Positions 4,973 through 48,042 of a DNA stretch of 64,000 nucleotides are shown here, piece by piece. Numbering within the stretch: the first letter of the stretch is position 1; every line of letters begins with the position of its first letter. The stretch is taken from the NCBI GenBank assembly GCA_963758495.1, contig CAVWVI010000004.1, positions 471,587-535,586 on the forward strand, written 5' to 3'. The position numbers and the translations under genes were made by a program. The stretch is from Oligoflexia bacterium (GTDB lineage Bacteria; Bdellovibrionota; UBA1018). The notes under the pieces are model-generated. The model worked only from the letters and a program-made list of their open reading frames with translations. It had not been told where the DNA came from and did no database searches.

Positions 4973-5028
4973 ATTACCACTGAATGACTTGACGCAGCTT
5001 CAAACGTCAGTTAACCAAAGTAGTCTTG

Positions 5029-35190: not shown

Positions 35191-36212
35191 TTCATGTCCT
35201 CAGTTTCGGATGGCTCTGAAAAATCGAAAACTCGAATTTGATTTTCAATTGAGCTATTCGGAAAAGCTTCCTTTGCAATTTTCTCAACGGCGTCTTTACG
35301 TTCTTGTAATGGTACTTCTCCCCGTAAAAGAATCTTATTTTCTTGCTGTTCAATTTGAATATCTAACTCATTTGTTCGAGAATCTTCAGCCAATCTCTCA
35401 CGAAGATGAGCTACTGCATAGGCGCTTTGACCTTCTCGCGCGAGTAAATTCGATGGAGTCGGAGATCTTATTTGTTTACTCTTTCCTATCTCAGCCTTTC
35501 TTATTGCAGTAAGACGCTCATCTGTCACTCCGTTTGTAGGCAAAATCACTCCAGATTTATGAGTCACGTTTTCAAATATTCCGGAATAGAGCTCATGAAC
35601 TACATAGTTTGGAACCCAAATATCGTTTGATTGCGCATAAAGTAAAAGACTTAGAATTCGACGCGGAGCTCGTCTGGCTCTCCGAATTAAATAATGCCAA
35701 TCAATATTGGCATAGGATAAGAGAGCAATTGCATCATGCCAATGACCAGGTGTCAGTTCGCTGTGTGCAACGGCCTTAATAATGAGTAAATCCTCCGGCG
35801 CAACTAAGCGAAGACGCTTTCCATGAAATTCAGCTGTAATCATTCTCTGGTACATTTCTGCGTCTAAATAAATTTCCCCTTTAGATTTAAATATAATGTC
35901 TACTAAGATGTTTTTCTTAAATCCTTTATATAACCAGCTAGGATCCGTTTTTTCTGTTTTAAAGCCTTTTTTCGCGAGCGCCCTAAGAGCCAACTCCGCC
36001 TCTTCAGGTATTACAAATAAATCAATATCATGAGTAGAACGCGGTCTTCCTAATCCGCCCGATGCGATTCCTCCAATAAACATATATCGAATACCCGACT
36101 CCTCCATTGCTTCAACCGTCTCACCCAAGACCTCATTGAATCGATCTACCAGATCGGGGTCCTCGGTTGTCGATATTTCGGTTTGAGTTACAGTGTTCTT
36201 CAAGGGTTTCAT
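35187..36212 (-). CDS. pol-beta-superfamily nucleotidyltransferase-like protein with C-terminal BON domain
   Basis: NTase signature IGGIASGGLGRPRSTHDIDLFV (G[GS]...DxD); C-terminal ILLRGEVPLQERKDAVEKIAKEAFPNSSIENQIRV resembles a BON domain. Confidence 0.5.
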   Translation of the reverse strand: MKPLKNTVTQTEISTTEDPDLVDRFNEVLGETVEAMEESGIRYMFIGGIASGGLGRPRSTHDIDLFVIPEEAELALRALAKKGFKTEKTDPSWLYKGFKKNILVDIIFKSKGEIYLDAEMYQRMITAEFHGKRLRLVAPEDLLIIKAVAHSELTPGHWHDAIALLSYANIDWHYLIRRARRAPRRILSLLLYAQSNDIWVPNYVVHELYSGIFENVTHKSGVILPTNGVTDERLTAIRKAEIGKSKQIRSPTPSNLLAREGQSAYAVAHLRERLAEDSRTNELDIQIEQQENKILLRGEVPLQERKDAVEKIAKEAFPNSSIENQIRVFDFSEPSETEDMK

Positions 36213-36330: not shown

Positions 36331-36747
36331 ATGTCAAATTTTACCGAACAAGATCGAGAACCCACACACTCAACTTCGAATCCAGAAACCTCTTCTCACG
36401 AAGATCAAAAACAGCCAGAACATAAACGTGACTTGGAATCTCAGCAGCCATCCAATAAGTCTGACCTTTCTGAAAGCCCTGGGCAAGAAAACCCACCCGC
36501 CCCACCACCTGAAAGCCGTCCTATTGAACGAAATAGAGGCCATGGAAGACCAGGAGCACGGGGCACGGCTGCAATGGATCCTCAAACTCGCCAAGAAGTT
36601 GCGAGAAAAGGAGGTTTAGCTGTTTCACGAAACAAACAGCACATGGCGGAAATTGGACGAAAAGGAGGTCAAAGCGTGTCTAAGAATCGGGAACACATGG
36701 CTCAAATTGGTCGTAAGGGCGGCGCTGCCTCGAGAGGTCATCGTTAA
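36331..36747 (+). CDS. KGG-repeat general stress protein
   Basis: Three KGG repeats (ARKGGLAVSRNKQHMAEIGRKGGQSVSKNREHMAQIGRKGGAA); GGGAGG RBS before the ATG. Confidence 0.7.
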   Translation: MSNFTEQDREPTHSTSNPETSSHEDQKQPEHKRDLESQQPSNKSDLSESPGQENPPAPPPESRPIERNRGHGRPGARGTAAMDPQTRQEVARKGGLAVSRNKQHMAEIGRKGGQSVSKNREHMAQIGRKGGAASRGHR

Positions 36748-36786: not shown

Positions 36787-37803
36787 TTGGGCATTTTTAT
36801 GCTTTTGCATCAAGAGAGGCTAATTGCTGCGATCCGTAAAACATTCACTCGTCTGATACGTTCTTACAAAAGTTTTACATCTGGTTTTCTCATTTCGAAG
36901 CAAGATAGGGCCATGCACACGCAACCTCGAAAAATTAACTGGCTGATGAGTATTCCCTTCTTTTTAGTTCATTTGTCTGTCATTGCGATTTTCTGGGTCC
37001 CCTTTCATTGGGGATTCGTGGCGCTTTGCATAGGCAGTTATTATTTGAGAATGTTTGCTATAACGGCTGGTTATCATCGATTTTTTTCACATCGATCATA
37101 TAAAATGAACCGTGTCGCTCAATTTGCTATGGCATGGCTCGGAAGCACCTCTTTACAAAAAGGGGTTCTTTGGTGGGCCGCAAACCATCGCTGGCACCAT
37201 CGTCACTCGGATCAACCGGCAGATCTTCACTCCCCCCTTCAGCATGGATTTTTATGGTCCCATGTGGGTTGGATTTTGAGTAACAGCTATGACGATACCC
37301 GCTGGGAACAAATTCAAGACCTTGCAAAATACCCAGAATTATGCTGGCTCAATCGCTTTCATTATATCCCGCCGATTCTTTATGGCGTCCTGCTTTTCGT
37401 TTGCGCTGGCTGGAGCGGCTTTGTGTGGGGATTTATTATGAGTACCGTTTTACTTTGGCACGCCACCTTTACAATTAATTCTTTAGCTCATGTATGCGGG
37501 ACGACTCGTTACTCAACAACAGATACAAGTAAAAATAACTTCTGGTTAGCATTACTGACACTCGGAGAAGGCTGGCATAATAACCACCATTGCTATATGA
37601 GCAGTGCTAATCAGGGCTTTTTCTGGTGGGAAATTGATGGTAGTTTCTACGTTCTTAAAATGCTTTCTTGGCTAGGATGGGTTTCAGATTTAAGAAAACC
37701 TCCACTCAAGCTTTTAGATGCTAAACGTTTAAAACCATTCCTTCATACCCAAATGACCAATCCACTTCCTGCAAATGAGGAACAGTGTCTTGAGCGTGCT
37801 TAA
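36787..37803 (+). CDS. membrane fatty-acid desaturase (acyl-lipid/acyl-CoA desaturase family); start uncertain
   Basis: Three His boxes (HRFFSHRS, HRWHHRHSD, HNNHHCY); homologous region starts near KINW, so ATG at 36913 may be the real start. Confidence 0.8.
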   Translation: MGIFMLLHQERLIAAIRKTFTRLIRSYKSFTSGFLISKQDRAMHTQPRKINWLMSIPFFLVHLSVIAIFWVPFHWGFVALCIGSYYLRMFAITAGYHRFFSHRSYKMNRVAQFAMAWLGSTSLQKGVLWWAANHRWHHRHSDQPADLHSPLQHGFLWSHVGWILSNSYDDTRWEQIQDLAKYPELCWLNRFHYIPPILYGVLLFVCAGWSGFVWGFIMSTVLLWHATFTINSLAHVCGTTRYSTTDTSKNNFWLALLTLGEGWHNNHHCYMSSANQGFFWWEIDGSFYVLKMLSWLGWVSDLRKPPLKLLDAKRLKPFLHTQMTNPLPANEEQCLERA

Positions 37804-38779
37804 GTTGGGTTTGATAATACCGTCTCCCTTGGGCTTCTGCCGCAGCAATCTTTTCGTCTGAAGACGCAGGGTCATGGTGCATAAAGACAACACGCTTAAT
37901 TCCTTCACGCATAGCAATATCTAAACCCAGAGAAGCCGTGGCATGACCCCAGTTTACTTTCTCAATATTTTCCATCAAGGTATATTGAGCATCAAAAATC
38001 ATCATATCAACGCCCTGATAAAGAGGAAGGTCTGGACCCAATGCTTCTCTTGTAACGCGAGTGCACTCGGTATCTACGCAATGGGAGTATACGTGACCCT
38101 CTTTTTCAATCTTAAATCCCCAACACGGATCAGGATGATCGAGTTGATAGGGCGTAATTGTAATGTCACCCAAGATCATTGGCTTGCGCGGTTCAAGCTG
38201 ATGATATTCAATTTTTGAAGGTAAATTTTCTAAGGGCACTGGAAAGAATGGTTTCTTAAATACAGCTTTAAAGATTTCCTTTAAGTCAGGCTGAACGGAA
38301 TAAACATGGATTCGATTGCCAGGAATAAAAAGGGGGGTAAAAAAAGGCAATCCGATCAGATGATCCCAATGGAAATGAGTAAAGAATATATGAACTTCAC
38401 CAGTCCCCTTGCTACAAGGGCCTTTCATTAACTCATAGCCAAGGGGTCTAATCCCACTACCGCCGTCAATAATAAATTGCTGTCGATTTGAACTCACTTC
38501 AATACAAGGTGTATTACCGCCGTACCCTCCCCATCGGTAACGCGGTTGATGAATGAGAAAATCATCTATTTCCGACTCGCCACGACCCCCAATACTCACA
38601 AAATCACTCATGAGAGATCTGATGTGATTTTGAAGGACAAGCGGTTGAAGCGGGGTTGGAAAAGATCCACGTGCACCCCAAATTTTCACTCTCAATAAAG
38701 TGCTATTTTCTACGGGGGCTTTAGGGTTCGTCATAGGTTTTATCTGCGGGTTTATCTGTGGTTTTATCTGTTGATTCAT
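37721..38779 (-). CDS. metallo-beta-lactamase-fold hydrolase
   Basis: HFHWDHLIGLPFF metal-binding motif; N-terminus encoded by three 12-nt tandem repeats (QIKPQINPQIKP). Confidence 0.75.
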   Translation of the reverse strand: MNQQIKPQINPQIKPMTNPKAPVENSTLLRVKIWGARGSFPTPLQPLVLQNHIRSLMSDFVSIGGRGESEIDDFLIHQPRYRWGGYGGNTPCIEVSSNRQQFIIDGGSGIRPLGYELMKGPCSKGTGEVHIFFTHFHWDHLIGLPFFTPLFIPGNRIHVYSVQPDLKEIFKAVFKKPFFPVPLENLPSKIEYHQLEPRKPMILGDITITPYQLDHPDPCWGFKIEKEGHVYSHCVDTECTRVTREALGPDLPLYQGVDMMIFDAQYTLMENIEKVNWGHATASLGLDIAMREGIKRVVFMHHDPASSDEKIAAAEAQGRRYYQTQLKHAQDTVPHLQEVDWSFGYEGMVLNV

Positions 38780-38826: not shown

Positions 38827-39693
38827 TTATTCTCTAAATTTCTTTTTTTGTTCTATCGCTTTATTTACCGGAAACAACTCCAATATTTTTTGACTCTCTT
38901 CTTTCACCTGCTTAAAACTCCAGCGAGGGTGTTCTGCCATAAGCTTAATCGCAACATCCGAGAGATAAATGCCCTCTACACTGTCTTTCCAAATTCGACC
39001 CGGTGCGACGGTCTTTACAATACCCCAGTCAGCATCAAAAAAATCATATTCAGTATAACGGGTCCGAGGTGTATTAACAGCAACCGGCGAGTCCTCTTCA
39101 ATGATAATCACTCCATCATTCGTCTTTAAATTTTTACTGTTTTTGAGTTTGTAGCGATAAATTTTTCGATGACTTGATGTTTTATCCGTTAAATATAAAA
39201 CCTGATAAGTAACGTTGGGTACAAAAAAGAAGGGGACGTGCTGCTCCCAATAGGTGAGGATCTTATTTTCCTGTTGGGAAACAATATGGATATCATCAAA
39301 GCCTGGAAATAGATCTTTATAATGGTTAATATCATCTAAAATCTCTTCAACTCGTCCTAAAGGAGCATTCACCCGCATGAATTGCTCCAATCCAATATAA
39401 TAAGGATTTCCTATAGTTTCAATACATTGTAACTGAACTGGATTCGGACTATTTTCTTGAGCGACAAAACTATCCTTGGGCCATACTCGGATCAAATTGA
39501 GTATGTAATTTGTATAAATACTCTCGGGGCCTTCTAATTTTTCATCTATTGAGTGCATTACGGGATGAATGCCCTTTGCTTGGGCTCCGAACGCTATCAA
39601 AAACAAAAAGCTAAGCAGTAAAAGCAATAGCTTCCTATGAAACACGAAATAATTTTGCCTTTTTGAAATTCTCCGTGCTTGAACCATATGCAC
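38827..39693 (-). CDS. hypothetical exported protein
   Basis: Signal peptide LLLLLLSFLFLIAFGAQA; 288 aa; no motif recognised. Confidence 0.45.
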   Translation of the reverse strand: MHMVQARRISKRQNYFVFHRKLLLLLLSFLFLIAFGAQAKGIHPVMHSIDEKLEGPESIYTNYILNLIRVWPKDSFVAQENSPNPVQLQCIETIGNPYYIGLEQFMRVNAPLGRVEEILDDINHYKDLFPGFDDIHIVSQQENKILTYWEQHVPFFFVPNVTYQVLYLTDKTSSHRKIYRYKLKNSKNLKTNDGVIIIEEDSPVAVNTPRTRYTEYDFFDADWGIVKTVAPGRIWKDSVEGIYLSDVAIKLMAEHPRWSFKQVKEESQKILELFPVNKAIEQKKKFRE

Positions 39694-39717
39694 CGTATAT
39701 CATAAGAATTGAATATT

Positions 39718-40977
39718 ATGGCTATTTTGATTGTAGATGACGAAACAAAAACTCGAGATGCCTTGCGAAATCTTCTGAGCCATCTTGGACATAAAGTACT
39801 CTTAGAAGCCAAAAATGGAGAGGAAGCTCTTAAAGTCGCTCACTCTGAGAAATCTCGAATTAAACTAGTCCTTGCTGATTTAGAAATGCCTCATATGGAC
39901 GGGCTGACTTTAGCCAAAAAAATTGGAGAACTGCCCATTCTCGACTTGGCACCCTTTCTTTTGATTACTTCCGATCTATCTCGATCTCAATTATCTGAGC
40001 ATAGAAAACAAATCCCACGAATCGATTTCTACCTGCTTAAGCCTTTTCGAATGGCAACATTAGCAGAGGCTCTGAATCGTGCCTATATCCAGAGAAGCCT
40101 TACACGAAGTCAGATACTCTATGTGGGAAAAAATATTCCTATCTCCCTTTCTCAGGCTATTCACCAAAGCTCTCATGATACCCTTTGGACAGAACTAGTC
40201 CTCATTCAAAGCCCAACAGCACTCAAAGAAAAACTAGTCAGCTTCGCGCAAAAACCAGGAGTGATCTTACCAGGAGCTATCTTCATTCATCCGTCAGACC
40301 TAAACCAGGACGAAAAAATACAATACAGTGAGATCCTCTCAATCTTCAAAAAGACACCTCTAGGTAACATGATGCAGTTTGCGTGCTTAAGCCGGAATCC
40401 AGAGGAAGTATTTAACTTTAGAATAATTTGTCAGCTTTTCTACACACCCCAAAGCACTATTCAGGATTGGCATTCACTCCTCACGCAAATCACGATGAGA
40501 ATTCATCATAGCTGGGAAATAGAACTACTTGCTCAAGAAACTAAATTTAAAATTCAGGAAAGGCAATACAAAACAGCACTAAAAACTGCTGAACAAGCAT
40601 TAAAGTTAGATCAAAATAATTCCGAATCCCATATTACGATCGGCGAAATTCTGGAGCACCTCAATCAACAGGACAAAGCAGCACTTCACTATCAAAAGGC
40701 CATTCAACTCAATCCTACTTTACCACGTCCGTATATTAAACTTTTTAAGCTTTGCTCTCATTCAAAAGCTTTTCATGACAAACCCCAAGATATCTTCGAA
40801 ATAATCACGATGGGTGTGCAGTTCTGTCCACAGAATTTGGATTTTCTCTTTTTCGCAGCAACAGAATTATTTAAACTTGGAAATAAAAGAACCTCTAAAG
40901 ATCTTTTAGAGATCATTCTTAATATAGAGCCTCAACATTCAAGTGCCAAGATACTATTGAAACAAATCCAATGTTAA
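39718..40977 (+). CDS. response regulator with receiver domain and C-terminal TPR repeats
   Basis: ILIVDDE...LADLEMPHMDGL receiver motifs; C-terminal TPR-like helices; ATG at 39718 (TTG at 39709 also possible). Confidence 0.7.
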   Translation: MAILIVDDETKTRDALRNLLSHLGHKVLLEAKNGEEALKVAHSEKSRIKLVLADLEMPHMDGLTLAKKIGELPILDLAPFLLITSDLSRSQLSEHRKQIPRIDFYLLKPFRMATLAEALNRAYIQRSLTRSQILYVGKNIPISLSQAIHQSSHDTLWTELVLIQSPTALKEKLVSFAQKPGVILPGAIFIHPSDLNQDEKIQYSEILSIFKKTPLGNMMQFACLSRNPEEVFNFRIICQLFYTPQSTIQDWHSLLTQITMRIHHSWEIELLAQETKFKIQERQYKTALKTAEQALKLDQNNSESHITIGEILEHLNQQDKAALHYQKAIQLNPTLPRPYIKLFKLCSHSKAFHDKPQDIFEIITMGVQFCPQNLDFLFFAATELFKLGNKRTSKDLLEIILNIEPQHSSAKILLKQIQC

Positions 40978-42755
40978 ATTTTTTCTTACCCATCATAACG
41001 CTTTTTTTACTGATTTTTGTAATCGACCTCTTCTTTCGTAACAGCAGAGACTTACTCTATCGTACAAATATTTTATCAGGAAAAATTCCTCTTAACGAGC
41101 AACAGCTATTGGAAGTCGTTCAAAAATACGGAAACAATAGCAATTCCTTCATGACGCTTTACCCTGGCTTTGATTACTTTAAATCAAAAGATCCAACTAT
41201 TCCTGGAGCTATAGCATTTTTAGAAATGTCGTACGCTTGGATCGGTGGGACCGAACCTCTCACTTCTCCAGAATGTGAAAATAGGCTCCTCACTGAATTC
41301 GCCGAAGCTGCTGCGAAAGTAGGAAAAACTGCTGTTTTATTGCCTGTGAATCAAGAAGTCGCCAAAAGAGCTTCAAAAGCAGGATATGGCAGCTTAATGA
41401 TTGGACGTGAACCTGTCTTTGATTTATCTTTTTATCCCAAAACTGGAAACACTTGGATTGATATCATACCGACAGCTAAGCAACTTGATGCAAAAGGTGC
41501 AAGAATTATTGAAATTTCTCCCACTCAATGCTCCCAGCAAATCAAACATGAACTCGATGCGATCACAACCGAATGGTTATCTACTAGAAAAATGGATCCA
41601 TTAGGCTTTTTAAATAAAGTAGAACCTTGGACCCTTTCTGAACATAAAAAGTATTTTTACCTTGAGCTTTCAGGAAAAATACTAGCATTTTTAGCAGCAA
41701 TCCCCATTTGGCCACGACGTGGCTGGTATCTTATTGATTTAGTGCGAAAAAAAGACACTCCCGCAGGAACTACTGAGTTACTCACCCTTCGAAGTATGCA
41801 GCTTCTAAAAAATGCAGGTGCCCAAGAGGTTACTCTAGGTGTCTCACCTCTTGCTCAACTGGACTCTGACCCTTCAAACCCAAAACTATCAGCATTTCTT
41901 CGTATGATGTACGAAAAAGGAAATCTATTTTATAATTTCAAATCTCTTTATCAATACAAACTCAAGTTTGATCCCACAAGATGCGATGCTGCTTATCTTA
42001 TATTTAAAAATATAGAAACACAGCAGACTCACCTTCGACTCAAGGATGTCCTCAGCATATTTCAAGCTTTCTCTCGAAAGGGACTGATGCATGCAACGTG
42101 GTCAGGGCTCACTCGTTCCGTAAAACAAACCCATCTTTCTGAATTAATCAGAAATCAGTTAAAATTGGCAGTAGTCGTGCGTTCAGTTCCAAGATCTTGG
42201 CGCCTTCTCCTTTTGCGTTGTAAATTTACTGTGTCCATATTGGTTTTCAATTTAGTTCTGTTTTTTGCCACGACAGAATCTTCTGGATTACTGAAATCAA
42301 GCATTGAAGCCCAATGGGGTTACCGATGGGATACTCTTCATCAATCCCCCGTCCACGCACTCGCACTTTCTCCTTTTCTTCATTGGAATTTAACTCATTT
42401 AAATATCAATTTAATCCTACTCATTTGTTTCACTGGAGGATTAGAATATCTTGCAGGCACAGGCTTTGTGGCCCTGTGTTACCTGATTCCCATGATCCTT
42501 TCAAACCCTCTCACCTCATTATGCCTGGGTGCAATGAATTTTCCGCTGACAGAGCTTGATGTGGGGGCGTCTTTAGGAATTTTTGGCTGTGTCGGCGCTC
42601 TGAATGGGTTTTTGCGACATGGAATCATCTTGAGCGCTAGCCTATGCGGCATCACCTTGATTCAAGCACTGGTGACGCATAATGGACTTGTTTTGAATCA
42701 TTGGACGGCTCTCTTTCTTGGAACCTTAATTGGAAGACTTGCACTCAAAAAGTAA
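40971..42755 (+). CDS. membrane protein with DUF2156 (MprF C-terminal/aminoacyl-lipid-synthase-like) domain fused to a rhomboid-like C-terminal domain
   Basis: N-terminal TM; central region has DUF2156-like blocks (MIGREPVF, IPIWPRRGWYLIDLVRK); C-terminal TM domain has rhomboid-like HWNLTHLNINL, VGASLGIFG and NHWTALFLG. Start overlaps the regulator's stop. Confidence 0.5.
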   Translation: MLNFFLPIITLFLLIFVIDLFFRNSRDLLYRTNILSGKIPLNEQQLLEVVQKYGNNSNSFMTLYPGFDYFKSKDPTIPGAIAFLEMSYAWIGGTEPLTSPECENRLLTEFAEAAAKVGKTAVLLPVNQEVAKRASKAGYGSLMIGREPVFDLSFYPKTGNTWIDIIPTAKQLDAKGARIIEISPTQCSQQIKHELDAITTEWLSTRKMDPLGFLNKVEPWTLSEHKKYFYLELSGKILAFLAAIPIWPRRGWYLIDLVRKKDTPAGTTELLTLRSMQLLKNAGAQEVTLGVSPLAQLDSDPSNPKLSAFLRMMYEKGNLFYNFKSLYQYKLKFDPTRCDAAYLIFKNIETQQTHLRLKDVLSIFQAFSRKGLMHATWSGLTRSVKQTHLSELIRNQLKLAVVVRSVPRSWRLLLLRCKFTVSILVFNLVLFFATTESSGLLKSSIEAQWGYRWDTLHQSPVHALALSPFLHWNLTHLNINLILLICFTGGLEYLAGTGFVALCYLIPMILSNPLTSLCLGAMNFPLTELDVGASLGIFGCVGALNGFLRHGIILSASLCGITLIQALVTHNGLVLNHWTALFLGTLIGRLALKK

Positions 42756-44574
42756 ACTCAATAAAAACCATGGGCCAAACGGTTAAAGAATGCCCAGTAC
42801 CCTGAAGCTCCGCTTCATTCATCCGATACGCTGCCCATTGCTCTTGTAGCCATATACCTACCGTCAAAGTATCATTTAAAGGATGCGAAAATTCTAGATT
42901 TCCGCTTTGTGCATATCGGTAGGAAAGCCCTGTGTTTTGGTAGAGCCCCCCCACGCTTAAGCTTGCTAAATAACTTCCAAAAAACCTTTTGTGAATTCCT
43001 CCTTCTAGATAAGGTCCAAAAAATCCAAAGTTGTTAAAACCAAATTGGCTCGTAGGTTCTTCAATCACACGACCTAGATAGGAAACTCGCACACCCGCAT
43101 TTAAAGTGAAATAGAATTTAGGCTGAAAAAACCTACGTACTATACCGATCAGAATTTGAGTCTCATGAGCAACCAATCTCACTTGATTCGGAACATGAGT
43201 TTCAAAATCCCCTGGTTCAACATAATTTTTATTAACGCTGATCAGTGATTCAATTGAGTAATGTGGATTGAGCCAATAATCATACTGGACTTGACCTTGA
43301 GTGAAAGTAGAAGTTTTTAAGATAACGCTAGCCGGAGAATTTGAGTCATTACCTGAAAAATAATAATTTGTATACTCACTCCCATAAAAAAGTCGAAGAG
43401 CATTCTGATGTTTTGAGTATTCATCGAACATCAGATAAGTTTCATAGGTCTCTTCAGCTCCAGTACGATTTCGCGCGGCCTGAATTTCCAAAGGCATAAA
43501 CTCACTATAGGGTCCACGCTCACCTGCCGTATCGACCGCTGCCACACGCCAATAATAGAAACCAGCCGTATCGGTCTTCCAAACATACTTGATGTTGGAA
43601 ACAGACCTTTCTTGAATCAAATGTTTAAATTCAGAATCTGTTGAAATTTGAATGACATAATCACGAGCGCCTAAAACAGATTTCCATTCCAACTCTACCG
43701 AGTATTTACCGCCATTCGAACCTTCATCGGCATACGCTTCAGCAATAAATAACTGATTCAGAGTTTGCATCCATTTTCTATCGACTCTTCTTTGTTGGGC
43801 TCCTTCATTCGGATAATGAATGACAGGTCGTTTTAAAATAGGTGGATCAATACTTTGAAGAATCACTTCGTTATTCTGAATCATTTGAATATTTACTTTC
43901 GGTCTCAAAAGCTCAGGAGGTTGAATCAAATGATGAACGATAACAGGAGGCGTCGGGCTACTTAAAATTTTATGATTTCCAGGAGTTTGAAATACGAGTC
44001 CAAGCTCTACAGATGCCAAGCTCGAATCGGTAATTTCCACATCTCCTTGATTGATATCAATGATGGGCTCCCCTTGAACTGAGCTCTTAATTTTAAAACT
44101 TGCAGAACCGGTACTCACTACTTTTTTACTACCCACTTGGATCTCAAGAGAAGCTCGATTTTCCCCTTGCTTATTTAAATCTTGCTGCACTGTCCCCTTC
44201 ACTAAAGTCAAAATAAATGCCCGACTATTCAACGATGGCGTCTTTCGCAGCATCACTACCGAATCAGGACCGAGGCTTACCGATTGACCATCTATAAACT
44301 TCAAGGTGACGGCGGATGAAGCTCCCGTCATAATTTCGTCTCCCTCAAATAAGCTCATTCCTTCCTTAATTTGCTTCCAATAGAGCTGATGCCTCGAATG
44401 ACTCTTCGCTGTTCGAGACACTGATTGGACTTGAGCAATACGAACTGCTTGAGAATGCCTATCGGTAGGTTTCCACAAAAAATGGAAATTAGAAAATAGC
44501 ATCCACACTTCAATTACCAATGCAAATAAGATGAGTACTACCCATTTACGCTCTACATAATTCAAAAACTTCAC
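42745..44574 (-). CDS. exported protein with FecR-like and fibronectin-III-like regions and C-terminal beta-barrel-like region
   Basis: N-terminal hydrophobic segment, FecR-like LFEGDEIMTGASSAVTLKFIDGQSVSLGPDSVVML, FN3-like YYWRVAAVD, aromatic-rich C-terminus ending FIEFTF. Confidence 0.45.
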   Translation of the reverse strand: MKFLNYVERKWVVLILFALVIEVWMLFSNFHFLWKPTDRHSQAVRIAQVQSVSRTAKSHSRHQLYWKQIKEGMSLFEGDEIMTGASSAVTLKFIDGQSVSLGPDSVVMLRKTPSLNSRAFILTLVKGTVQQDLNKQGENRASLEIQVGSKKVVSTGSASFKIKSSVQGEPIIDINQGDVEITDSSLASVELGLVFQTPGNHKILSSPTPPVIVHHLIQPPELLRPKVNIQMIQNNEVILQSIDPPILKRPVIHYPNEGAQQRRVDRKWMQTLNQLFIAEAYADEGSNGGKYSVELEWKSVLGARDYVIQISTDSEFKHLIQERSVSNIKYVWKTDTAGFYYWRVAAVDTAGERGPYSEFMPLEIQAARNRTGAEETYETYLMFDEYSKHQNALRLFYGSEYTNYYFSGNDSNSPASVILKTSTFTQGQVQYDYWLNPHYSIESLISVNKNYVEPGDFETHVPNQVRLVAHETQILIGIVRRFFQPKFYFTLNAGVRVSYLGRVIEEPTSQFGFNNFGFFGPYLEGGIHKRFFGSYLASLSVGGLYQNTGLSYRYAQSGNLEFSHPLNDTLTVGIWLQEQWAAYRMNEAELQGTGHSLTVWPMVFIEFTF

Positions 44575-44656
44575 GTATACTCGACTCCCCCCCTTAATGC
44601 AGGTAATATACTATTAAAGTTTCAATAATTTTAAACTTATTCAAGAGTATAACTGC

Positions 44657-46756
44657 ATGAGATGGTCATTACGGACAAAAATATTAATCATTCTTTCGAC
44701 TCTTTTATTAATTGTAGTCACAGCACACCTTATTTTATCTGAAAAAATACTCCGTGAAGATAAAGAATTACTTATTTATGATAGTAATCGATCCAATACT
44801 GAGCAACTTGCAAACGAACTCGACAATTCAATGCATCGAGTTATCGACAAAATGGAGCTTCTTGCGGAGCTAGTTCTCAATAATTCAAACTTATCTAAAA
44901 GCAATGGCAAAGTGCTTGCTGAGCTTTTCATCGAAAAGGATCCAGATCTACTTGTCTTTCAAATCATCCAACCTAAAAAAAGCCACACCCCCATACAAGG
45001 GGAGCTTTTATCCAAAAAGAAAATCCAAGCAATCAAATTAAGCTTATCGCAAATTCATAATAATCATATTTTACCCATTTCATTTGATTCTTCTCAAAGT
45101 GAAATTTCAATAGAAAATCGCTCTATTGCAAACACCATTCTTTATTTAATTCGAGTACCGGTTCAGATCAATGGAACCAAGAAGCAAGAACCCATTTTTG
45201 CACAAGCCTTAATCGATGGCCGCTCCTTGGAACTGATTTTTCGTGAAAGTCAGTCGTTAGCAGTAAATTTTGCAGTCACCCACACTGGACAAATTTTCAC
45301 ACACCCAAACCTCGACTGGGTGACCTCAAGAAAGAATTTAAATAATCTAGAAATCGTAAAAAAGGCCCAACTTCAACAATTCACGATGCAGCAGATGGTC
45401 TTTGATTTTGAGAAAAAAAGCTATATGGGAGTTTACCAAAAAACTACCCTGGGGTCTCTAACAGTGATCTCTATGATCGATAAAAGCATCGCTCGAAGAG
45501 CAAGTCGTATTCTTCTTGAAAAGACTATGATTCTTTCGCTCATTATTGTCACTGTCGTATTATTGATCAGTTTATTTTTTGCGGGATCTTTAAGCACCCC
45601 TCTCTTGAGTCTCGTGGATGCTACAAAGCAAATTTCTTTAGGCAATTTCGACACTCCGATTGACGTTCATACTCAGGACGAGATTGGAGTCCTCGCTCTC
45701 GCATTTTCAAAAATGACAAAAGAACTTAAGTCCTCACGATTGCTACTCGAAGAATATAATCGAGATCTCTCTCTTAAAGTTCATGAACGAACCCAAGAAC
45801 TCGAAAGCAAAAATGCTGCAATTCGTCAACAGCATGAAGTCCTGATTCAATCGACTCATTTAGCTACCCTGGGAGAAATTGCTGGAAAAGCTGCACATGA
45901 AGTTCTCAACCCCCTTACGGCTATGATTTCCAACCTCGAAAAGTTATTGAACTATACAAAGCAACTGAGTCAATCACCCTCTACTTCGCTTTCATTATTT
46001 AAAACCATCTTAGATAGCTGGAGAGAAGCTTATCATTTAGGAGGTCTTCAAGCTTGGTTGGAGAATGTCAAACAGCCCAGCCGCATACTCCCAGGAAAAT
46101 CCCTCCTTGAAGAGGATATCGAAAACTTAAATTTAATCTTAGGGCAGTTCAGTAGTTTTACTCAAAAATCCAATTCGGACTTACAACTGATTCTAAGCGA
46201 ATCTCACCGAATCTCCAGAATCGTGGATCAATTGAGAGGACTGAGCCGAACTACCCGATTGACCTCACCTATAGATATCAATACGATTATTACTGATAGC
46301 ATTCAAGTTACTGAAGATCTGCTCGCCCGTTATAAAATCAAAATCGAAACTCGACTCGATGAGTCACCTCTTTATATTGTAGCTAATGACGATGAAATGA
46401 GACAAATTTTCTTTAATCTCATTAAAAACTCTATGGATGCCATTCATGCTTCAAACTCTCATTCCGGTGGAAGAATTCAAATCACCACCCAAGCATTAAA
46501 AGAACAAGTCAAACTGAACTTTTGGGATAATGGTATTGGGATTCCTTTAAAAAACCGGGATAAGATTTTTGAGTCCGACTTTAGCACTAAAGGAGCCTAT
46601 GGGACGGGATTCGGTTTAGGCATCTGTCGCCGTTTTGCACGTGCAGCTGGAGGAGAAATTATCGTGAAAGCAAGCGAGCCAGGAAAATTTACGGAATTTG
46701 AACTTACTTTTCCTCGTGGATACCCACCTAACTCTCTTGAACCAGAAAAGAAATAA
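44657..46756 (+). CDS. membrane sensor histidine kinase (periplasmic sensor domain, HAMP, HisKA, HATPase)
   Basis: Two TM helices flanking a ~270-aa periplasmic region; H-box HEVLNPLTAM; N, G1, G2 boxes (NLIKNSMDA, WDNGIGIP, GTGFGLGI). Confidence 0.85.
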   Translation: MRWSLRTKILIILSTLLLIVVTAHLILSEKILREDKELLIYDSNRSNTEQLANELDNSMHRVIDKMELLAELVLNNSNLSKSNGKVLAELFIEKDPDLLVFQIIQPKKSHTPIQGELLSKKKIQAIKLSLSQIHNNHILPISFDSSQSEISIENRSIANTILYLIRVPVQINGTKKQEPIFAQALIDGRSLELIFRESQSLAVNFAVTHTGQIFTHPNLDWVTSRKNLNNLEIVKKAQLQQFTMQQMVFDFEKKSYMGVYQKTTLGSLTVISMIDKSIARRASRILLEKTMILSLIIVTVVLLISLFFAGSLSTPLLSLVDATKQISLGNFDTPIDVHTQDEIGVLALAFSKMTKELKSSRLLLEEYNRDLSLKVHERTQELESKNAAIRQQHEVLIQSTHLATLGEIAGKAAHEVLNPLTAMISNLEKLLNYTKQLSQSPSTSLSLFKTILDSWREAYHLGGLQAWLENVKQPSRILPGKSLLEEDIENLNLILGQFSSFTQKSNSDLQLILSESHRISRIVDQLRGLSRTTRLTSPIDINTIITDSIQVTEDLLARYKIKIETRLDESPLYIVANDDEMRQIFFNLIKNSMDAIHASNSHSGGRIQITTQALKEQVKLNFWDNGIGIPLKNRDKIFESDFSTKGAYGTGFGLGICRRFARAAGGEIIVKASEPGKFTEFELTFPRGYPPNSLEPEKK

Positions 46757-46779
46757 GTGACCAGGAGAAGAAATTAGCT

Positions 46780-48042
46780 ATGCCGACAGTTACGCGTCAT
46801 CATCATAATAACCTTCTAAACAACATATTCAATAATCGCATTCTGATAGTCGAAGATGAGCCTAATATTCGAGAGGGGTATCGAAGTATCTTAACACCTA
46901 CCCAAATTCCAGAACTCAGTAGTTCCCGCATTTCTTCCCCAGCTCTCTCCCCTAATCCCGTGCAACACTCCCCCTCTACTTTAAGCTTTGAGATCGTAGA
47001 AGCAGAGAGTGGAGAAAATGCCTTAAAAACTCTTTTGACAGATCTGCAAGAAGGGCGTCGCTTTGCAGGAGCCATTGTCGATGTAAGAATGCCTGGAAAG
47101 TTAGATGGACTCCAATTTATTCAAGAAGCCTGGAAAAATGATCCAGACCTCATCGTGGTGGTGGCCACCGCCTACCAAGATCGCTCTGTCGACGAAATCC
47201 ATAGACTCTTCACCGAATCCTTTCAAGACCAGTGGGATTATCTGAATAAACCTTTTACTGCCGGGGAGATTACTCAAAAAGCGAGGAATCTCGTCTCCAC
47301 TTGGAATCGGAGGTATCGAGAAAAGGAATATTTGAGACAAATTAAAGAACAGCAACAAGCTTTAATAGGTCAAGAAAAACTAGCTGCTGTAGGAAGACTC
47401 GCAAGAAGCGTGGGCCATGAATTTGGAAATATTTTACAACCGCTCATATCCACTCTTGAGCTTACTAAAGAACAAGTGAAATTAGGGGAATTGAATTCAA
47501 TTGAATCATTCGTGGATGAAATGCTTGAAATAGCTAGCCTGGGTGCAAATATTTGTCAGGATTTACTTACATTTTCCGACGAAAATCTAAACCCAAAAAC
47601 TCAATTAAATAAGGTTCTCATTGAACCGATCATCGAAACTTCCACTCGACTCTTAAGACATGAGATCAAAAAGCATGATATCCATATTACCACTCTCATC
47701 GAAAAAAACCTTCAAGGTCTTATAGATGAATCTCGCTTGATCCAAATATTAGTGAACTTATTAAAAAATGCTTTAGATGCACTCCCCGATGGTGGAATCA
47801 TAGAAATTCGTGGTTACTCAACTCCTCAAAATGCAGTCTTGGAAATTAAAGATTACGGTTGTGGCATATCTGACACAGATTTACCCAAACTTTTCCAGCC
47901 TCTATTTTCCACAAAAGGCAACTGCGGTAATGGCATCGGATTGATTGCGTGTAAGCAAATCATGGAAGAACACGGTGGTGAAATTTTAATCCAATCCAAG
48001 CTTGGCATTGGCACTACTGTCATGCTTAAGTTTTCTCTCTAA
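46780..48042 (+). CDS. response-regulator/histidine-kinase hybrid (N-terminal receiver, C-terminal HisKA-HATPase)
   Basis: Receiver ILIVEDE...DVRMPGKLDG with a low-complexity insert; H-box GHEFGNILQPL; NLLKNALDA, DYGCGI, GNGIGL. Confidence 0.8.
   Translation: MPTVTRHHHNNLLNNIFNNRILIVEDEPNIREGYRSILTPTQIPELSSSRISSPALSPNPVQHSPSTLSFEIVEAESGENALKTLLTDLQEGRRFAGAIVDVRMPGKLDGLQFIQEAWKNDPDLIVVVATAYQDRSVDEIHRLFTESFQDQWDYLNKPFTAGEITQKARNLVSTWNRRYREKEYLRQIKEQQQALIGQEKLAAVGRLARSVGHEFGNILQPLISTLELTKEQVKLGELNSIESFVDEMLEIASLGANICQDLLTFSDENLNPKTQLNKVLIEPIIETSTRLLRHEIKKHDIHITTLIEKNLQGLIDESRLIQILVNLLKNALDALPDGGIIEIRGYSTPQNAVLEIKDYGCGISDTDLPKLFQPLFSTKGNCGNGIGLIACKQIMEEHGGEILIQSKLGIGTTVMLKFSL

What the first reader, a model, noticed from the sequence alone, without database searches (positions are those of the whole stretch)
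39718..42755. Response regulator-TPR protein coupled to a DUF2156-rhomboid fusion
The 594-aa membrane protein combines a DUF2156-type domain (the fold of the aminoacyl-phosphatidylglycerol synthase catalytic domain of MprF) with a C-terminal rhomboid-like domain showing HWNLTHLNINL, VGASLGIFG and NHWTALFLG in the positions of the rhomboid TM2 motif, catalytic Ser and catalytic His. Its start overlaps the stop of a receiver-TPR protein. A lipid-aminoacylation-like domain fused to an intramembrane protease-like domain under a receiver protein would be an unusual envelope-modification or signalling module.
Basis: partly seen in the sequence, partly recalled or inferred. Interest (0 to 1): 0.55.

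Follow-up and report, generated by a model that had tools for sequence, protein, structure and literature searches.

The report
Aminoacyl-lipid synthase fused to rhomboid
A membrane protein of Bdellovibrionota bacteria joins an enzyme domain that loads amino acids from tRNA onto membrane lipids to an intramembrane serine-protease (rhomboid) domain, and sits in a conserved gene trio with a receiver-TPR regulator and a secreted lipid-binding protein; I found no description of this way of building an envelope-lipid remodelling system.

Summary

The fusion is a real family. 51 homologs down to 32% identity were retrieved, and 93 of the top 150 hits in a 1.84-billion-protein search have this architecture. 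All named genomes are Bdellovibrionota apart from one MAG labelled candidate division WWE3.

Mutagenesis-validated synthase residues (D256, R259) and K330/K332 are kept in 50-51 of 51 members. The rhomboid Ser534/His577 pair is kept in 44. Six members lost both together. One of those operons carries an intact stand-alone rhomboid of the same subtype.

The receiver-TPR gene lies directly upstream in 15 of 17 loci. A Sec-exported START/SRPBCC protein is adjacent in 11.

Best reading: a tRNA-dependent aminoacyl-lipid synthase whose membrane module is a rhomboid instead of the MprF flippase. What the Ser-His dyad hydrolyses (aminoacyl-lipid or a protein) is unresolved. I found no paper describing it. 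It is a new variant of a known kind.

The parts
38827..39693 (-). Divergently transcribed 288-aa Sec-exported START/SRPBCC (helix-grip) protein; conserved third member of the module and a candidate periplasmic binder or carrier of the modified lipid.
   Evidence: Orthologs are adjacent to the fusion in 11 of 17 loci. 136 homologs were found, some above the Pfam threshold for Polyketide_cyc2 or Polyketide_cyc. 94 of 109 full-length members have a hydrophobic N-terminus, often ending in an AxA-type site. The AF2 model has pLDDT 91.7. Foldseek hits include ARO/CYC cyclases, PYR/PYL receptors, a Xanthomonas StAR-related lipid-transfer protein and CERT START domains bound to ceramide or DAG.
39718..40977 (+). 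Receiver-TPR protein (419 aa): receiver at residues 3-119 (nt 39724-40074), a conserved middle region of unknown fold at residues 120-276, and TPR repeats at residues 277-419 (nt 40546-40974). No DNA-binding domain. Presumed regulatory or scaffolding subunit.
   Evidence: Pfam Response_reg scores 62 bits and several TPR models pass their thresholds. The phospho-acceptor pocket is complete: D7, D8, D54, T84, K108. The ortholog lies directly upstream, overlapping the fusion's start, in 15 of 17 loci.
40971..40977 (+). ATGTTAA start/stop overlap between the receiver-TPR gene and the fusion gene, suggesting translational coupling.
   Evidence: Sequence read directly. Equivalent 4-8 nt overlaps occur in L002-L005, L016 and L017-L019. 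No terminator-like site lies between the two genes.
40974..41072 (+). N-terminal helix (residues 2-34). Its hydrophobic part is a probable N-out/C-in transmembrane anchor. It is present only in the closer relatives.
   Evidence: AF2 predicts a helix at 2-34. There are no charges before it and 4 K/R residues after it. It is absent from P0030, P0032 and P0039-P0050.
41115..42002 (+). DUF2156/LPG_synthase_C domain (residues 49-344): a tandem-GNAT aminoacyl-tRNA-dependent transferase, cytoplasmic. Key codons are D256 (41736-41738), R259 (41745-41747), Y329 (41955-41957), K330 and K332.
42003..42197 (+). Linker (residues 345-409) with three predicted helices, ending in an Arg-rich juxtamembrane stretch (VVVRSVPRSWRLLLLRCK).
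   Evidence: AF2 secondary structure. The consensus 'VVxRSxPxSW..LL.RxK' is conserved. 4 K/R residues mark the cytoplasmic side.
42198..42752 (+). Rhomboid domain (residues 410-594) with six transmembrane helices. Key positions: TM2 H471/H476/N480 (42381-42410), E492 (42444-42446), putative catalytic S534 (42570-42572) in GASLG, and putative catalytic H577 (42699-42701) in NHxxAxxxG.
42745..44574 (-). Convergent FecR-domain membrane protein (609 aa) whose 3' end overlaps the fusion's 3' end by 11 nt. Only a possible associate, because conservation is partial.
   Evidence: Pfam FecR scores 32.2 bits. A gene of similar size occupies the same position in L003 and L017 but not in L002, L004, L005 or L006.
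44657..48042 (+). HAMP histidine kinase (44657-46756) and a receiver-histidine-kinase hybrid (46780-48042). These are candidate phosphodonors for the receiver-TPR protein; conservation is partial.
   Evidence: Pfam HAMP, HisKA, HATPase_c and Response_reg hits. The same pair follows in L003, and a HAMP kinase follows in L017. It is absent from other loci.

Best explanation
The 594-aa protein is the catalytic core of a three-gene envelope-lipid remodelling module found in Bdellovibrionota.

Step 1. The fold and catalytic residues are shown; the chemistry is inferred. I put this step at about 0.8. The cytoplasmic DUF2156 domain takes an amino acid from an aminoacyl-tRNA and esterifies it onto a membrane lipid hydroxyl. 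The acceptor is phosphatidylglycerol or another lipid, as in MprF, LysX and ErdS.

Step 2. The fold and topology are shown; the role is inferred. I put this step at about 0.8. The C-terminal rhomboid six-helix bundle replaces the MprF transmembrane domain as the element that holds the synthase at the inner face of the cytoplasmic membrane. This anchor role persists even in family members whose rhomboid catalytic residues have decayed.

Step 3. Inferred only; about 0.35, only marginally ahead of the protease rival. In most members, including this one, the rhomboid half is still an active Ser534-His577 hydrolase opening to the periplasmic leaflet. My favoured target is the aminoacyl-lipid itself. 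The domain would then be a built-in deacylase that sets the steady-state level of the modified lipid, equivalent to the separate hydrolases AcvB/VirJ, AhyD and ErdH (and the putative esterase PesT) that accompany other DUF2156 synthases.

Step 4. Inferred. The translationally coupled receiver-TPR protein is a stoichiometric cytoplasmic regulatory subunit. In this genome it is probably switched by phosphorylation of D54, possibly by the adjacent kinases.

Step 5. Inferred. The Sec-exported START/SRPBCC protein binds the lipid product in the periplasm, for transfer or sensing.
For: Synthase domain.
- Pfam, NCBIfam and PDB matches.
- AF2 model with pLDDT 88.8.
- D256 and R259 align to AfMprF D750 and R753, whose alanine mutants abolish LysPG. 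Y329 aligns to F824.
- D256, K330 and K332 are kept in 51 of 51 members, R259 in 50 of 51, and Y329 is always Y or F.

Need for a membrane module. The isolated MprF catalytic domain does not make aaPG in vivo; the transmembrane domain positions it (PMC8131360).

Rhomboid fold and topology.
-.
- K/R counts are 4, 4, 0, 1 and 3 on the predicted cytoplasmic segments, against 0-2 on the periplasmic loops. Members without the N-terminal helix have no signal peptide. The DUF2156 domain is therefore cytoplasmic, where aa-tRNA is available.

The dyad is probably functional but accessory.
- S534 and H577 are kept in 44 of 51 members and lost together in 6, with different replacement residues (Fisher p = 4e-7).
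- In L016 the fused copy is degenerate (24 bits), and an intact stand-alone rhomboid of the same subtype (183 bits) lies in the same operon beside the SRPBCC gene.

Precedent for a partner hydrolase.
- Three structurally unrelated hydrolases are encoded in operons with aaPGS (PMC6103681); two (AhyD, VirJ) are shown aa-PG hydrolases and PesT's function is unclear.
- ErdS pairs with ErdH in fungi (PMC7334510).
- The closest stand-alone DUF2156 relative found (L015, 235 bits to the family's DUF profile) is start/stop-overlapped by an alpha/beta esterase, in the position the rhomboid occupies here.

Module conservation. Receiver-TPR lies upstream in 15 of 17 loci and SRPBCC is adjacent in 11 of 17. 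The SRPBCC signal peptides and fold are supported.
Against: - No lipid product, tRNA dependence or hydrolytic activity was or could be measured here.
- As far as I know, no rhomboid has been shown to hydrolyse a lipid ester. Every characterised active rhomboid I am aware of is a protease (my knowledge of the field; not tested here).
- The Ser/His pair could not be aligned to GlpG S201/H254 by sequence.
- The family has GASLG rather than GxSG, and AxxxG rather than GxxxG after the His. It lacks the L1 W-R pair and has almost no L5 loop, so it is an atypical rhomboid.
- Two second-shell residues needed in AfMprF (M752, M763) are V258 and T268 here.
- The L015 sister pair has no transmembrane segment by eye. 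This DUF2156 clade is therefore not necessarily restricted to membrane lipids.
- The receiver pocket is degenerate in at least 6 of 12 orthologs, so phospho-control is not general.
- Ser-His geometry in the model could not be measured because coordinates are not exposed.
Confidence: 0.45

Rival explanations
1. The rhomboid half is a conventional intramembrane protease that cleaves a transmembrane protein. That substrate could be an unidentified envelope or signalling protein, possibly the neighbouring FecR-type protein in this genome. Proteolysis would be coordinated with lipid aminoacylation only through co-localisation and through the shared receiver-TPR regulator, which might act as an RssB/CpdR-like adaptor.
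For: All characterised catalytically active rhomboids are proteases (established knowledge). The TM2 H..H...N motif, E492/G496, the Ser and the His are conserved. The fold matches GlpG and iRhom2. An active stand-alone copy is retained in L016 where the fused copy has decayed. A single-pass FecR-domain protein is encoded convergently here and in L003 and L017.
Against: No candidate substrate is conserved across the family. The FecR-like gene is absent from most loci. The SRPBCC partner has an ordinary cleavable Sec signal rather than a membrane anchor. No C-terminal sorting-signal proteins relevant to this module were seen in the window. This reading gives no reason for the fusion to a lipid synthase being kept in at least 93 representative clusters. 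The near-absent L5 cap and missing WR motif are atypical for substrate-gated proteases.
Confidence: 0.3
2. The rhomboid half is only a membrane anchor and lipid-handling platform. It would thin or distort the bilayer, present the acceptor lipid to the synthase or help move the product to the outer leaflet, as a functional substitute for the MprF flippase. The Ser-His pair would be a relic with no role in the module.
For: Six of 51 members keep a full synthase and a decayed rhomboid remnant, which shows that a non-catalytic role exists. E492 in GGLEYLAG is kept in 51 of 51 members, including those without the dyad. The MprF synthase needs a transmembrane partner in vivo. iRhom2, a pseudoprotease, is the best structural match.
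Against: Ser and His are kept in 44 of 51 members across sequences only 32-50% identical, and they are lost only together. L016 keeps an intact copy as a separate gene. Both patterns indicate selection on catalysis. GlpG is used as a bona fide negative control for lipid scrambling (PMC11047089).
Confidence: 0.12
3. Rhombosortase-like lipidation. The rhomboid cleaves a protein, and the acyl-enzyme is resolved by the free alpha-amine of the aminoacyl-lipid made by the fused synthase rather than by water. The protein's new C-terminus would thereby be anchored to the lipid.
For: Rhombosortase-cleaved VesB carries a glycerophosphoethanolamine on its new C-terminus, and transamidation by a lipid amine has been proposed (PMC6219818). 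A synthase that makes an amine-bearing lipid, fused to a rhomboid, would place nucleophile and acyl-enzyme in the same protein. This last point is my inference.
Against: The fusion has no match to rhombosortase models in NCBIfam. No GlyGly-CTERM-like tails were seen in the window (a 64-kb sample only). The aminoacyl-lipid is made on the cytoplasmic leaflet while the rhomboid site opens to the periplasmic leaflet, so a flipping step would be needed. Transamidation is unproven even for rhombosortase. Loss of the dyad in 6 members, with everything else kept, argues that the dyad step is not the purpose of the module.
Confidence: 0.06
4. The DUF2156 domain does not aminoacylate a lipid. It would act on a peptide, cell-wall precursor or small molecule, as FemX, Sbb17 or VlmA do, and the membrane location would serve another purpose.
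Confidence: 0.06
5. The fusion is an artefact: two adjacent genes merged by an assembly or frameshift error.
For: A split arrangement (separate rhomboid gene) does exist in L016.
Against: The same single ORF occurs in an independent Logan assembly of this organism, in 51 homologs from many samples and in 93 of the top 150 representatives. The linker is conserved. AF2 models the whole chain confidently (pTM 0.74).
Confidence: 0.01

Closest known systems
MprF / aminoacyl-phosphatidylglycerol synthases (LysPGS, AlaPGS; e.g. R. tropici LpiA 6lv0/7duw, B. licheniformis 4v36, P. aeruginosa 4v34)
   Different: The domain order is inverted, with the synthase N-terminal. The 14-helix flippase domain is absent: NCBIfam bifunc_MprF scores 108 bits against a cut-off of 600, and only model positions 513-814 match. 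It is replaced by a six-helix rhomboid. The sulphur-aromatic residues M752 and M763 are not kept. The amino-acid and lipid specificity are unknown.
aaPGS or DUF2156 synthase plus dedicated hydrolase pairs (LpiA-AcvB/VirJ, PA0920-PA0919, aaPGS-AhyD, AlaDAGS-PesT, fungal ErdS-ErdH)
   Same: A DUF2156 synthase is genetically coupled to a serine hydrolase. In the shown cases the hydrolase acts on the far side of the membrane or controls product level. The hydrolase partner is only semi-conserved, as the rhomboid dyad is here.
   Different: The known partners are soluble or anchored alpha/beta-type or VirJ-type enzymes encoded as separate genes. Here the candidate hydrolase is an intramembrane rhomboid fused in the same polypeptide, and its activity on lipids is untested.
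Rhomboid intramembrane serine proteases (E. coli and H. influenzae GlpG) and rhomboid pseudoproteases (iRhom2)
   Different: The motif is GASLG instead of GxSG, and AxxxG instead of GxxxG. There is no W-R pair in L1, and L5 is reduced to 2-5 residues. TM4-TM6 have no detectable sequence similarity to GlpG (z = -0.3). The cytoplasmic N-terminal domain is an enzyme. A minority of members are pseudo-rhomboids.
Rhombosortase / GlyGly-CTERM system
   Same: It is a rhomboid-family enzyme whose action is linked to a membrane lipid carrying a free amine.
   Different: There is no similarity to rhombosortase models beyond the general rhomboid family. No cognate sorting-signal proteins were identified. 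The link to the lipid here is a fused synthase, not a detected protein-lipid adduct.
Other DUF2156 fusions: LysX (LysRS-MprF) and ErdS (AspRS-DUF2156)
   Same: The DUF2156 transferase is fused to a functionally related module, a Rosetta-stone type of coupling.
   Different: In those proteins the fused module supplies the aa-tRNA substrate. Here the fused module is a membrane-embedded hydrolase fold.
START/SRPBCC lipid-transfer and ligand-binding proteins (CERT START, bacterial StAR-related 3qsz, PYR/PYL)
   Same: The partner protein at 38827-39693 has the helix-grip fold with a central pocket (Foldseek target-normalised TM 0.5-0.68).
   Different: It carries a Sec signal, has an extra N-terminal segment and C-terminal helices, and belongs to a distinct sequence family that is mostly below Pfam thresholds. 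Its ligand is unknown.

Membership tests
DUF2156 / LPG_synthase_C (aaPGS catalytic domain, PF09924) | Match to the curated profile above its threshold | tested here: met
   111.9 bits against a cut-off of 27.5, covering residues 49-344 and profile positions 3-297 of 298. All 10 other members tested also pass.
DUF2156 / LPG_synthase_C (aaPGS catalytic domain, PF09924) | Tandem GNAT fold as in solved aaPGS domains | tested here: met
DUF2156 / LPG_synthase_C (aaPGS catalytic domain, PF09924) | Catalytic Asp and Arg (AfMprF D750, R753) and the tRNA-stacking aromatic (F824) | tested here: met
   These correspond to D256, R259 and Y329 via the alignment to 5vrv and 7f47. Conservation is 51/51 for D256, 50/51 for R259 and 51/51 for Y or F at position 329.
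DUF2156 / LPG_synthase_C (aaPGS catalytic domain, PF09924) | aa-tRNA-dependent aminoacylation of a lipid | not testable with these tools
   This needs lipid analysis or an in vitro assay.
Bifunctional MprF (NCBIfam NF033480) | Full-length match including the N-terminal flippase and membrane domain | tested here: not met
   108 bits against a cut-off of 600. Only model positions 513-814 of 841 match. The membrane domain has a rhomboid fold instead.
Rhomboid family (PF01694) | Match to the curated profile above its threshold | tested here: met
   33.2 bits against a cut-off of 22.6. Relatives score 25-42 bits, with coverage up to profile positions 6-141 of 143.
Rhomboid family (PF01694) | Six-helix rhomboid core fold | tested here: met
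Rhomboid family (PF01694) | TM2 HxxxN oxyanion-hole motif aligned with GlpG H150/N154 | tested here: met
   H476 aligns to H150 and N480 to N154. H471 also aligns to H145, E492 to E166 and G496 to G170. H476 and N480 are each kept in 45 of 51 members.
Rhomboid family (PF01694) | Catalytic Ser (TM4 GxSx) and His (TM6 HxxGxxxG) at positions equivalent to GlpG S201 and H254 | tested here: inconclusive
   Direct alignment to GlpG fails for TM4-TM6: hmmalign and hhalign stop after TM3 and the pairwise z-score is -0.3. In favour: Pfam matches run through TM6 in 6 of 10 members. S534 lies at the N-terminal end of the short TM4 helix. The G532/G542 and H577/A580/G584 spacing equals GlpG G199/G209 and H254/G257/G261. 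L013 has the canonical HxxGxxxG. Ser and His are lost together. The Ser-His distance in the model could not be measured.
Rhomboid family (PF01694) | L1-loop W-R motif of active rhomboids (that this motif is a family hallmark is from my own knowledge) | tested here: not met
   In the hhalign alignment, GlpG W136-R137 falls opposite non-conserved positions of the family. The family's conserved L1 motif is W-G-[FY]-S-W instead.
Rhomboid family (PF01694) | Intramembrane proteolytic activity | not testable with these tools
   This needs activity-based probes or substrate assays.
Rhombosortase (GlyGly-CTERM system) | Match to rhombosortase-specific models and co-occurring GlyGly-CTERM proteins | tested here: not met
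   Only MprF and LysX models hit in NCBIfam at E <= 0.1. No relevant C-terminal TM-plus-basic-tail proteins were found in the 64-kb window; the whole genome was not available.
Response-regulator receiver (PF00072) | Profile match and a complete phospho-acceptor pocket (CheY D12, D13, D57, T87, K109) | tested here: met
   62 bits against a cut-off of 30.2. The pocket residues are D7, D8, D54, T84 and K108. The pocket is degenerate in orthologs from L004, L006, L012, L016 and others.
SRPBCC / START superfamily (partner protein at 38827-39693) | Helix-grip fold or a profile match | tested here: met
   The window protein itself is below Pfam thresholds. Homologs P0066, P0134 and P0164 pass Polyketide_cyc2 or Polyketide_cyc. 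The AF2 model has pLDDT 91.7. Foldseek E is about 1e-7 to ARO/CYC, PYL, StAR-related and CERT START structures.
Anti-phage defence systems (PADLOC) | Any match of the module's proteins | tested here: not met
   No hits for the four proteins tested.

The most novel reading that the evidence does not exclude
The rhomboid domain works on a lipid rather than on a protein. It would use the aminoacyl-lipid made by its own fused synthase in one of two ways. It could hydrolyse it, which as far as I know would make this the first rhomboid lipid esterase and a self-contained synthase/deacylase rheostat for membrane charge. Or it could use the lipid's amine as the nucleophile that resolves a protein acyl-enzyme, giving sortase-like anchoring of proteins onto aminoacyl-phosphatidylglycerol. 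Either way, a bacterial rhomboid would gain a defined non-proteolytic or lipid-coupled biochemical role.
Probability: 0.35. Interest if true: 0.85.

Novelty: new variant of a known kind. Interest (0 to 1): 0.64.

Why it matters
Two fields meet here.

tRNA-dependent lipid aminoacylation (MprF and relatives) underlies resistance to cationic peptides and daptomycin. It has so far been described with the MprF flippase-type membrane domain, with aaRS fusions, or as free-standing domains. A rhomboid as the membrane module would be a different solution to positioning the synthase and handling its product.

For most bacterial rhomboids the physiological substrate is still unknown (my knowledge of the field). 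This family offers a Rosetta-stone link between a rhomboid subtype and a defined lipid pathway. The link is supported by a natural split-gene variant (L016) and by natural dyad-less variants. That makes rhomboid function directly testable with a few point mutants and lipid TLC or mass spectrometry.

The conserved receiver-TPR and periplasmic START-like partners suggest regulated, trans-envelope handling of a modified lipid in a phylum of mostly predatory bacteria whose envelope biology is poorly known.

Tried and rejected
1. Direct alignment of S534 and H577 to GlpG S201 and H254 did not succeed. The profile-versus-PDB search aligned TM1-TM3 only. hhalign against a single GlpG sequence aligned 56 columns. 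hmmalign aligned TM2-TM3 only. A global pairwise alignment of TM4-TM6 gave z = -0.3 and did not pair the residues. hhalign against a 14-sequence GlpG alignment reached 97 columns and stopped after TM3. The last homolog search, used to build that profile, returned only GlpGs at 78% identity or more, so the profile was too narrow.

2. The first two genome contigs attempts failed: the 27-sequence alignment had no sufficiently conserved stretch and the single-sequence patterns gave no confirmed hit. A 7-sequence alignment then worked.

3. The idea of the rhomboid as a lipid scramblase replacing the flippase was weakened. GlpG is a published negative control for scrambling.

4. The SRPBCC partner as a rhomboid substrate was rejected. 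It has ordinary cleavable Sec signal peptides, not a signal anchor.

5. The fusion's own N-terminal helix as substrate was rejected. The helix is absent from many members.

6. The idea that DUF2156 N-terminally aminoacylates rhomboid cleavage products, as an N-degron, was rejected on topology. New termini arise on the periplasmic side, whereas the transferase is cytoplasmic.

7. A defence-system assignment was rejected: no PADLOC hits.

8. Assembly or frameshift artefact was rejected.

9. The promoter and terminator scan found nothing above shuffled expectation.

10. Looking for a compensating stand-alone rhomboid near other dyad-less members (L017-L019 and the P0042 locus) found none. Three of those contigs are only 4-7.5 kb, so this is uninformative.

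11. Database names for the window's own proteins: none on record.

12. Model coordinates are not exposed, so the Ser-His distance and the domain interface could not be measured.

Full report
**What is in the sequence**

The window holds two same-strand ORFs exactly as reported. A 419-aa gene runs 39718-40977, and a 594-aa gene runs 40971-42755. The second gene's ATG (40971-40973) overlaps the first gene's TAA (40975-40977) as ATGTTAA. No terminator-like site separates them, and promoter and terminator consensus counts in the region do not exceed shuffled expectation. Base composition is unremarkable at about 39-45% GC.

**Domains of the 594-aa protein**

Pfam gives two hits.
- LPG_synthase_C/DUF2156 covers residues 49-344 (E 4.1e-32, 111.9 bits, cut-off 27.5).
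- Rhomboid covers residues 462-568 (E 7.1e-8, 33.2 bits, cut-off 22.6).

NCBIfam matches only the C-terminal synthase part of bifunctional MprF (model positions 513-814 of 841; 108 bits against a cut-off of 600). The protein is therefore not an MprF in the full-length sense. A sequence search of the PDB finds MprF/LpiA synthase domains (7f47 at 5.9e-23, 6lv0, 5vrv, 4v36, 4v34) and fungal ErdS.

An AlphaFold2 model built on 27 family members is confident (mean pLDDT 88.8, pTM 0.74). It shows, in order:
- an N-terminal helix (residues 2-34);
- a mixed alpha/beta domain;
- a helical linker;
- six helices at 418-434, 474-495, 497-521, 535-544, 551-569 and 572-593.

**Catalytic residues of the synthase domain**

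In Agrobacterium MprF, the mutations D750A, R753A and F824A abolish Lys-PG formation (bioRxiv 10.64898/2026.04.24.720753). Through the HMMER alignments to the Agrobacterium and Rhizobium domains, these residues correspond to D256, R259 and Y329.

Across 51 fusion homologs the conservation is as follows:

| Residue | Kept in |
|---|---|
| D256 | 51 of 51 |
| R259 | 50 of 51 |
| Y329 (Y or F) | 51 of 51 |
| K330, K332 | 51 of 51 |

Two second-shell methionines that matter in AfMprF (M752, M763) are V258 and T268 here. The transferase is predicted to be active. Its amino-acid and acceptor specificity cannot be read from the sequence.

**Catalytic residues of the rhomboid domain**

A profile of the family's C-terminal domain (alignment A2) finds H. 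influenzae GlpG (E 6e-7) and E. coli GlpG in the PDB. It aligns H471, H476, N480, E492 and G496 with GlpG H145, H150, N154, E166 and G170.

The second half (TM4-TM6) could not be aligned to GlpG by sequence.
- hmmalign and hhalign stop after TM3.
- An unconstrained pairwise alignment is no better than shuffled sequence (z = -0.3).
- The GlpG sequence used was verified as exact.

The equivalence of S534 and H577 to the catalytic dyad therefore rests on other evidence:
- The curated Pfam Rhomboid model aligns in one nearly gap-free stretch through TM6 in several relatives. Examples are P0030 residues 426-564 to profile 6-141 of 143, P0040 to 4-137, and the L016 stand-alone copy to 7-138.
- S534 sits immediately before the short helix 535-544, as S201 does in GlpG.
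- The spacings G532/S534/G542 and H577/A580/G584 equal GlpG G199/S201/G209 and H254/G257/G261.
- The most divergent member (L013) has a canonical HxxGxxxG.
- The evolutionary pattern described in the next section fits a catalytic pair.

The family is an atypical rhomboid. It has GASLG rather than GxSG and no W-R pair in loop L1. Loop L5, which caps the active site in GlpG, is reduced to a few residues.

**Family size, taxonomy and the fate of the dyad**

The word-indexed search found 51 full-length relatives at 32-52% identity, almost all carrying both Pfam domains. The exhaustive search of 1.84 billion representatives with the rhomboid-domain profile found 242 proteins at E <= 1e-10. Of the best 150, 93 are at least 500 aa long with the match in the C-terminal third, which is the fusion architecture. 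The others are fragments or proteins of 200-320 aa.

Named genomes are Bdellovibrionota: Oligoflexia, Bacteriovoracaceae, a Bdellovibrio sp. MAG and 'Bdellovibrionota bacterium FG-1'. One fusion-bearing MAG (L011) is labelled candidate division WWE3, which I take to be mis-binned.

S534 and H577 are present in 44 of 51 members. Six members (P0026, P0029, P0031, P0034, P0042, P0051) have lost both, with different replacement residues, and none has clearly lost just one (Fisher p = 4e-7). In these members the rhomboid half scores only 13-35 bits against the family profile, or 78-111 bits for P0029 and P0042. The synthase half still scores 388-415 bits.

In the operon of one such member (L016), an intact 245-aa stand-alone rhomboid of the same subtype lies two genes downstream. 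It scores 183 bits and keeps all key residues.

I conclude the following. The membrane-anchor role of the rhomboid fold is universal. The dyad is under selection as a unit and is functionally tied to the module. Its catalysis is nevertheless an accessory function that can be lost or supplied in trans.

**The conserved module**

In 15 of 17 distinct loci an ortholog of the receiver-TPR gene lies directly upstream, usually overlapping the fusion's start by 4-8 nt. The exceptions are the most divergent locus, L013, and the P0042 locus.

It is the divergently transcribed 288-aa gene at 38827-39693, and it is adjacent in 11 of 17 loci. In L016 it is on the same strand, between the fusion and the split-off rhomboid.
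- The family has at least 136 members.
- It carries Sec-type signal peptides: 94 of 109 full-length members have a hydrophobic N-terminus, and only 3 have a lipobox-like motif.
- Some members pass Pfam thresholds for Polyketide_cyc2 or Polyketide_cyc.
- It models confidently (pLDDT 91.7) as a helix-grip START/SRPBCC fold. Foldseek matches include CERT START domains bound to ceramide or diacylglycerol and a Xanthomonas StAR-related lipid-transfer protein.

The receiver of the window's protein has the complete phospho-acceptor pocket (D7, D8, D54, T84, K108). So do the orthologs in L003, L007 and L011. The pocket is degenerate in at least six other orthologs, so phosphorylation control is lineage-specific.

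A FecR-domain protein, a HAMP histidine kinase and a receiver-kinase hybrid follow in the window and in L003. A FecR-position gene and a HAMP kinase also follow in L017, but not elsewhere.

**Topology**

K/R residues cluster after the N-terminal helix (4), before rhomboid TM1 (4), in the TM4-TM5 turn (1) and in the C-terminal tail (3). Loops L1, L3 and L5 are neutral or acidic. Members lacking the N-terminal helix have no signal peptide.

This gives the GlpG topology. The DUF2156 domain sits in the cytoplasm, where aminoacyl-tRNA is available, and the rhomboid active site faces the periplasmic leaflet.

**How it most likely works**

Shown:
- an MprF-type transferase domain with intact catalytic residues;
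- a rhomboid-fold membrane domain with an intact, co-conserved Ser/His pair;
- tight genetic coupling to a receiver-TPR protein and a secreted START-like protein.

From established knowledge:
- DUF2156 domains transfer amino acids from aa-tRNA to lipid hydroxyls, namely PG, cardiolipin, DAG and ergosterol (PMC6103681, PMC7334510).
- The isolated MprF catalytic domain is inactive in vivo and needs its membrane domain to be positioned at the bilayer (PMC8131360).
- aaPGS genes are repeatedly paired with structurally unrelated hydrolase genes. AcvB/VirJ and AhyD are shown aa-PG hydrolases, ErdH is a shown Erg-Asp hydrolase, and PesT is a putative esterase whose function is unclear.

Inferred: the fusion is an aminoacyl-lipid synthase in which a rhomboid replaces the MprF membrane domain. 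The dyad's target is not determined.

I favour, narrowly, deacylation of the aminoacyl-lipid at the outer leaflet. Four observations point that way.
- The dyad is 'semi-conserved', exactly like the known partner hydrolases.
- The closest stand-alone DUF2156 relative found (L015, 235 bits) is start/stop-overlapped by an alpha/beta esterase in the position the rhomboid occupies here.
- No conserved candidate protein substrate exists.
- The active-site cap loop is missing.

The conventional alternative, a protease acting on an unidentified membrane protein, is almost as likely. A pure anchor or flippase role is disfavoured by the conservation pattern and by GlpG's lack of scramblase activity. A rhombosortase-like transfer onto the lipid amine remains a low-probability but interesting possibility.

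**Comparison with what is known, and novelty**

Full-text searches found no paper containing both DUF2156 and rhomboid. None of the papers containing both MprF and rhomboid, judged from titles and abstracts, describes such a protein. Searches on Bdellovibrio with MprF or rhomboid gave nothing relevant. Databases label members automatically as 'rhomboid family intramembrane serine protease' or 'phosphatidylglycerol lysyltransferase'.

Each domain is a member of a known family. The architecture, the loss of the MprF flippase domain, the conserved receiver-TPR and periplasmic START partners, and the implied functional link between a rhomboid and lipid aminoacylation are not described in the literature I could search. 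I rate it a new variant of a known kind.

**Limits**

No activity, lipid or interaction was measured. The organism's whole genome was not available, so I could not test for a canonical MprF, other rhomboids or sorting-signal proteins. Model coordinates could not be inspected. Several loci are short metagenomic contigs.

Noticed in passing
L016:4928-9217: A natural split variant of the module, all on one strand: receiver-TPR (4928-6004), a synthase with a decayed rhomboid remnant (6001-7593), the SRPBCC gene (7666-8475), then an intact stand-alone rhomboid of the same subtype (8480-9217). The SRPBCC protein here has a lipobox-like LTSC in its signal peptide.
   Followed up: yes
L015:1784-3771: In a MAG labelled 'Cyanobacteria bacterium SZAS LIN-3', a stand-alone DUF2156 protein with no apparent TM segment (377 aa, the closest non-fused relative found) is overlapped at its stop by a 291-aa alpha/beta esterase (Esterase_PHB, GFSSG motif). 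This looks like a soluble synthase/hydrolase pair with an unknown acceptor.
   Followed up: partly
window 39694-39717: The divergent SRPBCC and receiver-TPR genes are only about 24-30 nt apart here, and 33-107 nt apart in other loci. Both promoters must therefore overlap or lie inside the neighbouring coding regions. No convincing sigma-70-like site was found.
   Followed up: partly
window 42745-42755 and 42745-48042: A 609-aa FecR-domain membrane protein is convergent with the fusion and overlaps its 3' end by 11 nt. It is followed by a HAMP histidine kinase and a receiver-kinase hybrid. The block recurs in L003 and partly in L017.
   Followed up: partly
window 37721-37803: The fatty-acid desaturase gene (36787-37803, +) and a metallo-beta-lactamase-fold gene (37721-38779, -) converge, and their 3' ends overlap by 83 nt. 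Both are present upstream of the module in the relative L003; L002 carries the desaturase gene but not the MBL-fold gene.
   Followed up: no
window 36331-36747: A 138-aa protein with KGG stress-induced repeats (Pfam KGG, 24.5 bits) and a low-complexity acidic/Pro-rich N-terminus. Next to it at 35187-36212 (-) is a DUF2204 nucleotidyltransferase with a C-terminal BON domain.
   Followed up: partly
window 16898-18958 (-): A 686-aa phospholipase-D-family protein (PLDc_2/PLDc) with a C-terminal hydrophobic segment and a basic tail, so another lipid-related membrane enzyme in the window. A stand-alone CheY-like receiver lies nearby at 19203-19568 (-).
   Followed up: partly
locus of P0042 (JGI 3300071358; no DNA available): This dyad-less fusion member lacks the upstream receiver-TPR gene; a CrcB gene sits there instead. 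It is followed downstream by a 566-aa multi-TPR protein, possibly a rearranged or replaced partner.
   Followed up: no
fusion residue E492 (window 42444-42446), motif GGLEYLAG: The Glu equivalent to GlpG E166 at the TM2-TM3 turn is kept in 51 of 51 members, including all members that lost the Ser/His dyad. It may be structural or may contact the cytoplasmic synthase domain.
   Followed up: no
literature: B. bacteriovorus Bd2426: An RNA-seq table in PMC3818213 lists Bd2426, 'rhomboid-like protein (RRP)', as up-regulated in a host-independent strain. I could not check whether it belongs to this fusion family.
   Followed up: no
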